Source: Escherichia coli
GTDB lineage: Bacteria; Pseudomonadota; Gammaproteobacteria; Enterobacterales; Enterobacteriaceae
Length of the DNA stretch: 64,000 nucleotides
Assembly: GCF_003334355.1 (NCBI RefSeq)
Contig: NZ_QOWP01000005.1
Strand: one strand, 5' to 3'
Shown: piece after piece, positions 41,957 through 42,180 of the stretch
Numbering within the stretch: position 1 is the first letter of the stretch
Layout: every line of letters begins with the position of its first letter
The notes under the pieces: model-generated
The model's input: only the letters and a program-made list of their open reading frames with translations
What the model was told of the DNA's origin: nothing
The model's database searches: none
Program-made: the position numbers and the translations under genes

Positions 41957-42050
41957 GCACACGAAACAGACCTGATATACATGGTTCTGCTAACTGCTTC
42001 GCTGCAGTTTCAGTTTACCGGTATATGGGGACCAACGCTGTTTCGTGTGC
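41957..42050 (-). promoter_or_regulatory. rnc 5' leader long-range inverted repeat (candidate RNase III autoregulatory stem)
   Basis: 13-nt perfect inverted repeat gcacacgaaacag (41957-41969) / ctgtttcgtgtgc (42038-42050) separated by 68 nt. Confidence 0.65.
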
Positions 42051-42151
42051 CGTGGCAACCTGGAGGTGCCAACCTTAAACTTCGGGGGAATATTCTATAC
42101 ACAACGACGGGGGATGTCGTTAGCCACGGGAGATTTATCTCATAAATAATT

Positions 42152-42180
42152 CACGTTGTCGCCATAACGGCGACAACGTG
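42152..42180 (-). terminator. Perfect 12-bp stem hairpin just downstream of the lepB stop (attenuator/terminator candidate before rnc)
   Basis: cacgttgtcgcc ataac ggcgacaacgtg. Confidence 0.55.

What the first reader, a model, noticed from the sequence alone, without database searches (positions are those of the whole stretch)
41957..42180. Long-range inverted repeat in the rnc leader plus a perfect 12-bp hairpin after lepB
Two perfectly complementary 13-mers (gcacacgaaacag / ctgtttcgtgtgc) lie 68 nt apart in the rnc 5' untranslated region, forming a long stem typical of an RNase III substrate and consistent with rnc autoregulation by leader cleavage. Just upstream, directly after the lepB stop, is a separate perfect palindrome (cacgttgtcgcc...ggcgacaacgtg) that could terminate or attenuate lepA-lepB read-through into rnc.
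Basis: partly seen in the sequence, partly recalled or inferred. Interest (0 to 1): 0.3.

Follow-up and report, generated by a model that had tools for sequence, protein, structure and literature searches.

The report
Known rnc leader operator and lepB terminator hairpin
The long inverted repeat is the base of rncO, the documented hairpin in the E. coli RNase III messenger that the enzyme cuts to limit its own synthesis, and the hairpin after lepB looks like an ordinary, evolutionarily conserved transcription terminator, so the finding is correct but already known.

Summary
Both repeats are real and far beyond chance. The window here is E. coli K-12 lepB–rnc, with 1 mismatch in 3001 bases to MG1655.

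**Long repeat.** The 13-nt arms (42050..42038 and 41969..41957, minus strand) form the lower part of stem II of rncO. Rfam family RF00552 matches 42083..41869 full length at 258.8 bits (gathering score 43). In 89 Enterobacterales leaders this 15-bp lower stem is 97% paired and almost invariant in sequence. The apical part between the arms varies from 16 to 92 nt.

A public Term-seq data set places a stable RNA 3' end at window 42044, inside the 5' arm. The authors scored it as neither Rho-dependent nor intrinsic. That fits RNase III processing, which reviews describe as the autoregulatory step.

**Hairpin after lepB.** The perfect arms are 14 nt (42182..42169 and 42163..42150), with ΔG -26 kcal/mol. 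The hairpin starts 12 nt after the stop codon and is followed by UUAUUUAU. Across 88 distinct Enterobacteriaceae sequences all 12 consensus pairs show compensatory changes, and the AAUUAUUU tail is nearly invariant (three sequences differ by one base). This is a selected, terminator-like structure, but I found no mapped 3' end there.

Interest is low.

The parts
42195..42197 (-). lepB stop codon (TAA)
   Evidence: ORF 43169..42195 is annotated as lepB in RefSeq records that match at 100%.
42149..42183 (-). Terminator-like hairpin after lepB. Perfect 14-bp arms at 42182..42169 and 42163..42150, extendable to 15-16 pairs.
   Evidence: Repeat found and scored terminator-like. ΔG -26.2 kcal/mol, z -7.6. 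All 12 consensus pairs are compensated in 88 sequences, 94.6% paired against 24-52% when the partner is slid.
42142..42151 (-). U-rich tail. AAUUAUUU (42151..42144) is nearly invariant across Enterobacteriaceae (85 of 88 distinct sequences; three differ by one base). UUAUUUAU follows the stem.
   Evidence: and the conservation line. A dual role as an UP element of the rnc promoter is my inference only.
42092..42120 (-). Sigma-70-like rnc promoter: ACGACA, 17-nt spacer, TAGAAT
   Evidence: Consensus scan. The block CTAACGACA...GTATAGAAT is conserved in 106 of 112 loci. Literature names a shared sigma-70 promoter for rnc-era (PMC10582724). I did not verify the transcription start from data.
41869..42083 (-). 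rncO, the rnc leader operator (Rfam RF00552), full-length match
   Evidence: 258.8 bits against a gathering score of 43, model positions 1-214.
42053..42071 (-). rncO stem-loop I
   Evidence: Rfam structure line. 6 of 7 pairs show compensatory change in 89 leaders.
41955..42052 (-). rncO stem-loop II. An irregular apical extension lies at 42037..41970.
   Evidence: -42 kcal/mol, z -5.1. The lower stem is 97.4% paired, with 9 invariant pairs and one C-G to A-U compensatory pair. The distance between the arms ranges from 16 to 92 nt between genera.
42044..42044 (-). Mapped RNA 3' end (MG1655 2704184, minus strand), after G7 of the 5' arm: GCACACG^AAACAG
   Evidence: Adams et al. 2021 Term-seq, PMC7815308, supplementary files 1 and 3. 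The coordinate occurs three times in a file with one sheet per growth condition. Rho score 0.93, not in a Rho region, intrinsic terminator score 1.32, below 3.
41924..41961 (-). Predicted 5' UTR of the processed rnc mRNA. This assumes RNase III cuts after 42044 and leaves the usual 2-nt 3' overhang, which puts the new 5' end at U41961.
   Evidence: Inference from the geometry of RNase III cuts, not measured. The stretch 41961..41900 folds worse than 199 of 200 shuffles (z +2.07). That fits the 'unstructured 5' end' described in PMC3867540.
41884..41903 (-). rncO stem-loop III, inside the first codons of rnc
   Evidence: Rfam structure line. 95.5% paired but with no compensatory change; coding constraint confounds this.
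41921..41923 (-). rnc start codon

Best explanation
The lepB-rnc spacer of E. coli K-12 holds two separate, ordinary RNA elements on the minus strand.

**1. rncO, the post-transcriptional operator of the rnc-era operon.** The rnc transcript starts at or near 42083, from its own sigma-70 promoter. It folds into stem-loop I and a long irregular stem-loop II. While these 5' structures are intact they protect the message. RNase III cuts the double-stranded stem II and removes them. What remains is a short, unstructured, 5'-monophosphorylated leader that RNase E attacks, so rnc and era output fall when free RNase III is abundant. The identity of the element, its fold and its conservation are shown here. 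Cleavage and decay come from the literature. The exact cut (after 42044, with a partner cut before 41961) is my inference from a public 3'-end map.

**2. A Rho-independent terminator for lepA-lepB.** The hairpin begins 12 nt after the lepB stop. It has a 14-16-bp GC-rich stem followed by UUAUUUAU. It most likely ends the lepAB transcript, protects its 3' end from exonucleases, and insulates the rnc promoter 28 nt further on. Selection on the structure is shown here. Termination itself is inferred.
For: **Identity and context**
- rnc and lepB lie on the minus strand, and a 3001-base stretch around them has 1 mismatch to MG1655.

**rncO**
- RF00552 matches full length at 258.8 bits against a gathering score of 43.
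- The minimum-free-energy fold reproduces stems I and II.
- The same family is found above threshold in all 14 genera tested.
- Stem I covaries in 6 of 7 pairs. The lower stem II is 97.4% paired, with one C-G (54 sequences) to A-U (28 sequences) swap. Slid controls give 36-45% paired.

**Mechanism from literature**
- Cleavage of an irregular hairpin in the 5' UTR creates an unstructured monophosphate 5' end that RNase E recognises (PMC3867540).
- Other reviews say the same (PMC5371410; PMC8708148; PMC10582724).

**Processing signature**
- A Term-seq 3' end sits at 2704184(-), which is window 42044, inside the 5' arm. Its Rho score is 0.93 and its intrinsic terminator score is 1.32.
- The stretch downstream of the predicted cut is unusually unstructured, z +2.07.

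**lepB hairpin**
- Perfect 14-nt arms, scored terminator-like, -26.2 kcal/mol with z -7.6.
- A tail-anchored motif search found the hairpin plus tail in 94 of the 112 Enterobacterales loci with a usable spacer, with very different stem sequences between genera and a nearly invariant tail.
- The RNAalifold consensus has 12 pairs, all with compensatory changes. Pairing is 94.6%, and the covariation score is 0.697 against 0.245 in shuffles.
Against: - The primary papers (Bardwell 1989; Matsunaga 1996) and the supplementary tables of the global RNase III cleavage map (PMC6212723) are not held. I could not read the published cleavage coordinates.
- The 3' end at 42044 lies 9 nt downstream of stem-loop I. 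It could be an exonuclease stall product after a cut elsewhere in stem II rather than the cut itself.
- Covariation in the lower stem II rests on a single pair, because the helix is nearly invariant in sequence.
- No 3' end at the expected place (MG1655 about 2704282-2704289, minus strand) appears in the curated Term-seq lists of PMC7815308.
- The hairpin's U-tract is interrupted by A residues, so termination may be partial.
- Six genera or lineages keep the promoter and rncO but lack the hairpin.
Confidence: 0.9

Rival explanations
1. The hairpin after lepB is mainly a 3'-end stability element or processing stop for lepAB mRNA, or a weak terminator that lets much transcription run on into rnc. 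It is not an efficient terminator.
For: - The U-tract is interrupted (UUAUUUAU).
- No curated Term-seq 3' end is listed there in three growth conditions.
- In Erwinia, Pantoea and Izhakiella loci, rncO follows lepB directly with no recognisable -10 box, so lepB-rnc co-transcription exists in relatives.
Against: - The tail AAUUAUUU is nearly invariant next to a stem that changes freely. That is the pattern expected if the hairpin and the U-tract act together.
- The curated lists hold only the strongest peaks, so absence from them is weak evidence.
Confidence: 0.25
2. The invariant A/T-rich tail and the following ATAAAT block (about 42125-42151) are conserved because they act as an UP element of the rnc promoter. 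The hairpin is then only an insulator or terminator placed next to it.
For: - The block lies about 40 to 65 nt upstream of the presumed start.
- It is conserved as AATTATTT-N6-TAAAT in most genera, while the hairpin stem sequence is not conserved.
- Genera without the hairpin still have A/T-rich sequence in front of the -35 box.
Against: - No test was done here; this is a resemblance to the UP consensus recalled from general knowledge.
- A terminator U-tract explains the same conservation.
Confidence: 0.2
3. The 3' end at 42044 comes from premature transcription termination or pausing in the rnc leader, not from RNase III processing.
For: - Adams et al. interpret many 5'-UTR 3' ends as premature termination.
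- Stem-loop I lies just upstream.
Against: - The authors' own scores are Rho score 0.93, not in a Rho region, and intrinsic terminator score 1.32 where values above 3 suggest termination.
- There is no U-tract after stem-loop I.
- Read coverage is higher downstream than upstream, 213 against 132.
Confidence: 0.07
4. The repeats are chance or DNA-level palindromes, for example protein-binding sites, with no RNA role.
For: The plus strand also gives a weak rncO match, as any long palindrome would (23.9 bits, below the gathering score).
Against: - Shuffles give 0.13 such repeats per 64 kb.
- Compensatory changes include G·U intermediates that preserve only the RNA helix on the minus strand.
- The strand-specific Rfam score is 258.8 against 23.9 bits.
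Confidence: 0.02

Closest known systems
rncO (Rfam RF00552), the rnc leader 'post-transcriptional operator' of E. coli and Salmonella (Bardwell et al. 1989; Matsunaga et al. 1996, cited through reviews)
   Same: - Same locus and same strand, with a full-length model match.
- Three stem-loops, with a long stem II.
- Sits directly upstream of rnc.
   Different: Nothing differs; this is the type sequence. Two points I did not see stated in the literature available here:
- The apical half of stem II is an indel hotspot, with 16 to 92 nt between the arms.
- The 15-bp base is nearly invariant across Enterobacterales.
RNase III site in the rpsO-pnp leader (pnp autoregulation)
   Same: RNase III cuts a leader hairpin and thereby opens the downstream message to decay (PMC5371410; PMC8708148).
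   Different: - In pnp the controlling protein is PNPase, acting after the RNase III cut.
- In rnc the nuclease that cuts is itself the regulated product.
- There is no sequence similarity; no pnp-leader family was reported in this region.
rne 5' UTR hairpin (RNase E autoregulation)
   Same: A ribonuclease senses its own free activity through a structured 5' UTR of its own mRNA (PMC3997798).
   Different: The enzyme is different and the recognition is different: RNase E binds a stem-loop and cleaves single-stranded RNA.
Canonical Rho-independent (intrinsic) terminators at operon ends
   Same: - GC-rich hairpin followed by a U-rich run, placed 12 nt after the last stop codon.
- The structure is conserved through compensatory change.
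   Different: - The U-tract is interrupted by A residues.
- No mapped 3' end was found in the data I could read.
- The tail is unusually invariant and directly adjoins the next promoter.

Membership tests
rncO (Rfam RF00552) | Match to the family covariance model at or above its gathering score | tested here: met
   258.8 bits against 43, E 2e-61, model positions 1-214 of 214, at window 42083..41869 (-).
rncO (Rfam RF00552) | Lies in the 5' untranslated leader directly upstream of, and on the same strand as, the RNase III gene | tested here: met
   rnc ATG at 41923 (-). The product is annotated as ribonuclease III in RefSeq records that match at 100%.
rncO (Rfam RF00552) | Stem-loops I and II form, with stem II a long irregular hairpin | tested here: met
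   The minimum-free-energy fold of the spacer reproduces both stems. Stem II alone gives -42 kcal/mol, z -5.1.
rncO (Rfam RF00552) | Helices supported by comparative data | tested here: met
   Counts on 89 leaders:
- Stem I: 6 of 7 pairs compensated.
- Lower stem II: 97.4% paired, 9 of 15 pairs invariant, one compensated pair.
- Slid controls: 36-45% paired.

Support for the lower stem II is mostly conservation rather than covariation.
rncO (Rfam RF00552) | RNase III-dependent cleavage within stem II that destabilises the rnc message | not testable with these tools
   Taken from reviews. Indirect support comes from the Term-seq 3' end at 42044, inside the 5' arm, which is neither Rho-dependent nor intrinsic. 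No data from an rnc mutant were readable.
Intrinsic (Rho-independent) terminator | Stable GC-rich stem-loop | tested here: met
   14 perfect pairs, 8 of them G-C, -26.2 kcal/mol, z -7.6.
Intrinsic (Rho-independent) terminator | Run of U directly 3' of the stem | tested here: met
   UUAUUUAU, 6 U in 8. It passes the scan's rule of at least 5 T in 8. The run is interrupted, so efficiency is uncertain.
Intrinsic (Rho-independent) terminator | Placed just downstream of the last gene of a transcription unit | tested here: met
   The stem starts 12 nt after the lepB stop. The next promoter's -35 box is 28 nt beyond the stem.
Intrinsic (Rho-independent) terminator | RNA 3' ends map to the U-tract in vivo or in vitro | tested here: inconclusive
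   No entry at MG1655 27042xx-27043xx in the curated Term-seq lists of PMC7815308. Those lists hold only the strongest peaks. Other data sets were not readable or hold no lepB entry.
Intrinsic (Rho-independent) terminator | Hairpin maintained by selection (not defining, but supportive) | tested here: met
   12 of 12 pairs show compensatory change, 94.6% paired against 24-52% when slid, covariation score 0.697 against 0.245.

The most novel reading that the evidence does not exclude
**Operator and apical module.** The real RNase III operator may be only the nearly invariant 15-bp lower helix, GCACACGAAAC(A/C)G paired with C(U/G)GUUUCGUGUGC. Its sequence would then be constrained beyond pairing, for example by RNase III cleavage-site rules. 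The apical part of stem II would be a dispensable, fast-evolving module. It is a loop of about 17 nt in Klebsiella, Enterobacter and Kosakonia, a second helix of about 65-70 nt in Escherichia, Salmonella and Citrobacter, and about 90 nt in Raoultella. This module could tune how strongly each genus autoregulates rnc-era.

**Tail.** Separately, the invariant AAUUAUUU tail of the lepB terminator may double as an UP element of the rnc promoter.
Probability: 0.25. Interest if true: 0.25.

Novelty: already known. Interest (0 to 1): 0.08.

Why it matters
It matters little as a discovery. rncO is a textbook case of a ribonuclease controlling its own message, it has a curated Rfam family, and the lepB hairpin is a routine operon-end terminator.

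The useful outcomes are confirmatory:
- The comparison of about 110 Enterobacterales loci gives clean covariation proof for the lepB hairpin. It also shows that only the basal helix of rncO stem II is conserved.

Tried and rejected
**Literature that could not be read or held nothing**
- Primary papers and the Court 2013 review: PMC1369450, PMC401487, PMC6311387 and PMC209937 are not held.
- RNase III cleavage coordinates: no supplements are held for PMC6212723, and PMC5371410 gives no rnc-leader position.
- A mapped lepB 3' end: none in PMC7815308. PMC12207403 and PMC6131387 have no lepB entries, and PMC9023263 and PMC6061677 have no supplements held.
- Paper searches on lepB, rnc and terminator gave nothing relevant. 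A search on 'rncO' alone mostly returned chemistry papers.

**Ideas considered and rejected**
- A small inverted repeat, AACGAC-N7-GTCGTT, overlaps the -35 box. I considered it as an RNA or operator element. Its 3' half mutates without compensation while the 5' half is fixed as the -35 box, so I rejected it.
- The plus-strand rncO hit (23.9 bits) and a mir-2001 hit on the lepB hairpin (20.1 bits against a gathering score of 74) are palindrome artefacts.
- The plus-strand ORF at 41867-42145 (92 aa) lies antisense to the leader. I did not pursue it.
- The fold pairs UAGCCAU with GUGGCUA around the terminator. The 5' partner is not conserved in other genera, so I did not treat it as an antiterminator.

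Full report
**Observation.** The repeat finder reports perfect 13-nt arms at 41957-41969 and 42038-42050, 68 nt apart.

The genes lie on the minus strand: lepB is 43169..42195 and rnc is 41923..41243. A 401-base query spanning the spacer and the adjacent gene ends matches all 5426 complete E. coli genomes, always between rnc and lepB. A 3001-base stretch around it differs from MG1655 at one position, 42312. MG1655 coordinate = window coordinate + 2,662,140.

Neither repeat is a chance event. Perfect 13-mer inverted repeats within 100 nt occur at three places in the 64-kb window, against a mean of 0.13 in dinucleotide shuffles. The 14-mer hairpin is unique in the window, with none in 30 shuffles.

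**The long repeat is rncO.** A scan of 41000-43500 against Rfam gives a full-length match to RF00552 (rncO) at 42083..41869 on the minus strand, at 258.8 bits against a gathering score of 43. The whole-window scan repeats the result.

This helix is the base of stem-loop II. Stem-loop I lies at 42071..42053 and stem-loop III at 41903..41884, inside the first codons of rnc.

An unconstrained fold of the spacer reproduces stems I and II. Stem II alone folds at -42 kcal/mol with z = -5.1.

**What rncO does, from the literature.** I could not open the primary papers. Reviews I could read agree on the mechanism.
- RNase III cleaves an irregular hairpin in the 5' UTR of its own mRNA. This creates an unstructured, monophosphorylated 5' end that RNase E recognises, and the message decays quickly (PMC3867540).
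- The cleaved structure is described as a long stem-loop in the 5' UTR of rnc-era. [quoted passage not shown]
- PMC5371410 and PMC8708148 say the same.

**Experimental trace in public data.** The curated Term-seq tables of Adams et al. 2021 (PMC7815308) list an RNA 3' end at MG1655 2704184 on the minus strand, 121 nt upstream of the rnc start. The coordinate occurs three times in a file with one sheet per growth condition.

I checked the register of their 61-nt sequence strings on the sgrS row, where position 51 is the last U of the U-tract. For the rnc row, position 51 is the G of GCACACG^AAACAG. That is window 42044, inside the 5' arm of the repeat.

[quoted passage not shown] Coverage is higher downstream than upstream. 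So this end is a processing product, not a termination product.

If it is the RNase III cut itself, the enzyme's 2-nt 3' overhang places the partner cut before U41961. That would leave a 38-nt leader. This is my inference and has not been measured.

The 62 nt that start at 41961 fold worse than 199 of 200 shuffles (z +2.07), which fits the 'unstructured 5' end' in the review.

One caveat applies. Position 42044 is 9 nt beyond stem-loop I, so it could instead be an exonuclease stall after a cut elsewhere in stem II.

**Comparative data for rncO.** One scan of genome contigs with a degenerate pattern for the rnc N-terminus returned 120 Enterobacterales loci. Of these, 112 gave a clean lepB-rnc spacer of 112-295 nt.

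Eighty-nine distinct leaders were aligned and scored against the Rfam structure.

| Helix | Pairing | Variation |
|---|---|---|
| Stem I | 87.2% paired | 6 of 7 pairs with compensatory change |
| Lower stem II (15 bp) | 97.4% paired | 9 pairs invariant; one pair swaps C-G (54 sequences) for A-U (28) |
| Partner slid by 1-3 columns (control) | 36-45% paired | not applicable |

The helix is therefore kept, but mostly through sequence invariance.

The region between the arms is highly variable:
- 16-22 nt in Klebsiella, Enterobacter, Kosakonia and many others.
- About 63-74 nt in Escherichia, Salmonella and Citrobacter.
- 90-92 nt in Raoultella.

Rfam still recognises rncO above threshold in all 14 genera tested, including the short forms and the Erwinia, Pantoea, Izhakiella and Serratia-like loci.

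**The hairpin after lepB.** On the minus strand the stem starts 12 nt after the TAA stop codon. It has 14 perfect pairs, or 15-16 with a G·U pair and an outer pair, and folds at -26.2 kcal/mol with z = -7.6. It is followed by UUAUUUAU. The consensus scan scores it as the only terminator-like site in 41800-42300.

A tail-anchored motif search found a hairpin plus tail at the same position in 94 of the 112 loci. The stem sequences differ widely: TTCACGTTGTCGCC in E. coli, CGGGGCGCAA in Kosakonia, CGCGTAGCCGC in Enterobacter, TATGCGGGGGC in Pseudocitrobacter. The tail AATTATTT is nearly invariant (85 of 88 distinct sequences; three differ by one base).

RNAalifold on 88 distinct sequences predicts a 12-pair consensus, and every pair shows compensatory changes. 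Pairing is 94.6% against 24-52% when the partner is slid. The covariation score is 0.697 against 0.245 in shuffles, and no shuffle reaches the observed value.

This is strong evidence that selection keeps the RNA hairpin. Together with the U-rich tail and its position, the best reading is an intrinsic terminator and 3'-end protector for lepAB.

It is not proven. No 3' end at MG1655 2704282-2704289 is listed in the Term-seq tables I could read, and other data sets gave nothing.

The hairpin is missing in Edwardsiella, Shimwellia, Franconibacter helveticus, Entomohabitans, Tenebrionibacter and one unnamed lineage (LSJC7 and a related metagenome bin), which still keep the promoter and rncO. In Erwinia, Pantoea and Izhakiella loci, rncO follows lepB directly and I found no -10 box.

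I saw no conserved alternative pairing that would make the hairpin a regulated attenuator.

**Promoter.** ACGACA-17-TAGAAT (42120..42092) is the only promoter-like match on the minus strand. It lies in a block, CTAACGACA...GTATAGAAT, that is conserved in 106 of 112 loci. The Rfam model starts at G42083, 9 nt after the -10 box. I did not verify the transcription start from data.

**Verdict.** The element is the already described rncO plus a conventional terminator-like hairpin. It is already known and of low interest.

The only mildly new points are comparative: the invariant basal helix against a hypervariable apical domain in rncO stem II; the clean covariation of the lepB hairpin with its invariant tail; and the location of a public Term-seq 3' end inside the repeat.

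Noticed in passing
window 41970-42037 (-); loci L003-L122: The apical part of rncO stem II is an indel hotspot. The arms of the conserved 15-bp base are separated by 16-22 nt in most genera, about 63-74 nt in Escherichia, Salmonella and Citrobacter, and 90-92 nt in Raoultella.
   Followed up: partly
window 42103-42121 (-): A small inverted repeat, AACGAC-N7-GTCGTT, overlaps the -35 box of the rnc promoter. The 5' half is invariant. The 3' half changes in several genera without compensation, so it is probably not a structural element.
   Followed up: yes
window 42125-42151 (-): The A/T-rich block AATTATTT-N6-TAAAT lies between the lepB hairpin and the rnc -35 box and is conserved across genera. 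It sits where an UP element would lie, which could explain why the terminator tail is invariant. Not tested.
   Followed up: no
loci L013, L019, L067, L090, L094 (Pantoea, Erwinia, Izhakiella and relatives): The lepB-rnc spacer is only 112-133 nt. rncO stem-loop I starts right after the lepB stop, and no TATAGAAT-type -10 box was found. rnc may be co-transcribed with lepB there, or its promoter may lie inside lepB.
   Followed up: partly
window 41668 (-), MG1655 2703808: Adams et al. Term-seq also lists a 3' end inside the rnc coding region, seen in at least one growth-condition list.
   Followed up: no
window 38380-38460: A 19-bp perfect hairpin just downstream of acpS is the OhsC (ohsC_RNA, RF02495) antitoxin sRNA locus on the plus strand. 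It is the only other long perfect inverted repeat in the window.
   Followed up: partly
window 44866-45697 (+): Rfam AsrC (RF02746, antisense RNA of rseC mRNA) matches at 510 bits, antisense to rseC and the start of lepA. It is also found in several related loci.
   Followed up: no
window 29035-29182 (-), 292-363 (-), 52164-52206 (-): Other Rfam matches above the gathering score: GlmY, naRNA4 (CssrE) and ES036 (CssrF).
   Followed up: no
window 37926-37959; MG1655 2700059 (-): Another perfect 12-nt inverted repeat (GGTGCGTCCGGT...) coincides with a Term-seq 3' end at window 37919, so it is probably a working terminator.
   Followed up: no
window 42312: This is the only difference from MG1655 in the 3001 bases compared (A in the window, G in MG1655 on the plus strand). 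It lies inside lepB.
   Followed up: no
locus L083: A contig labelled Chryseobacterium sp. 18061 carries an enterobacterial-type lepB-rnc spacer, with the hairpin, the AATTATTT tail and a 223-nt spacer. The record is probably contaminated or mislabelled.
   Followed up: no
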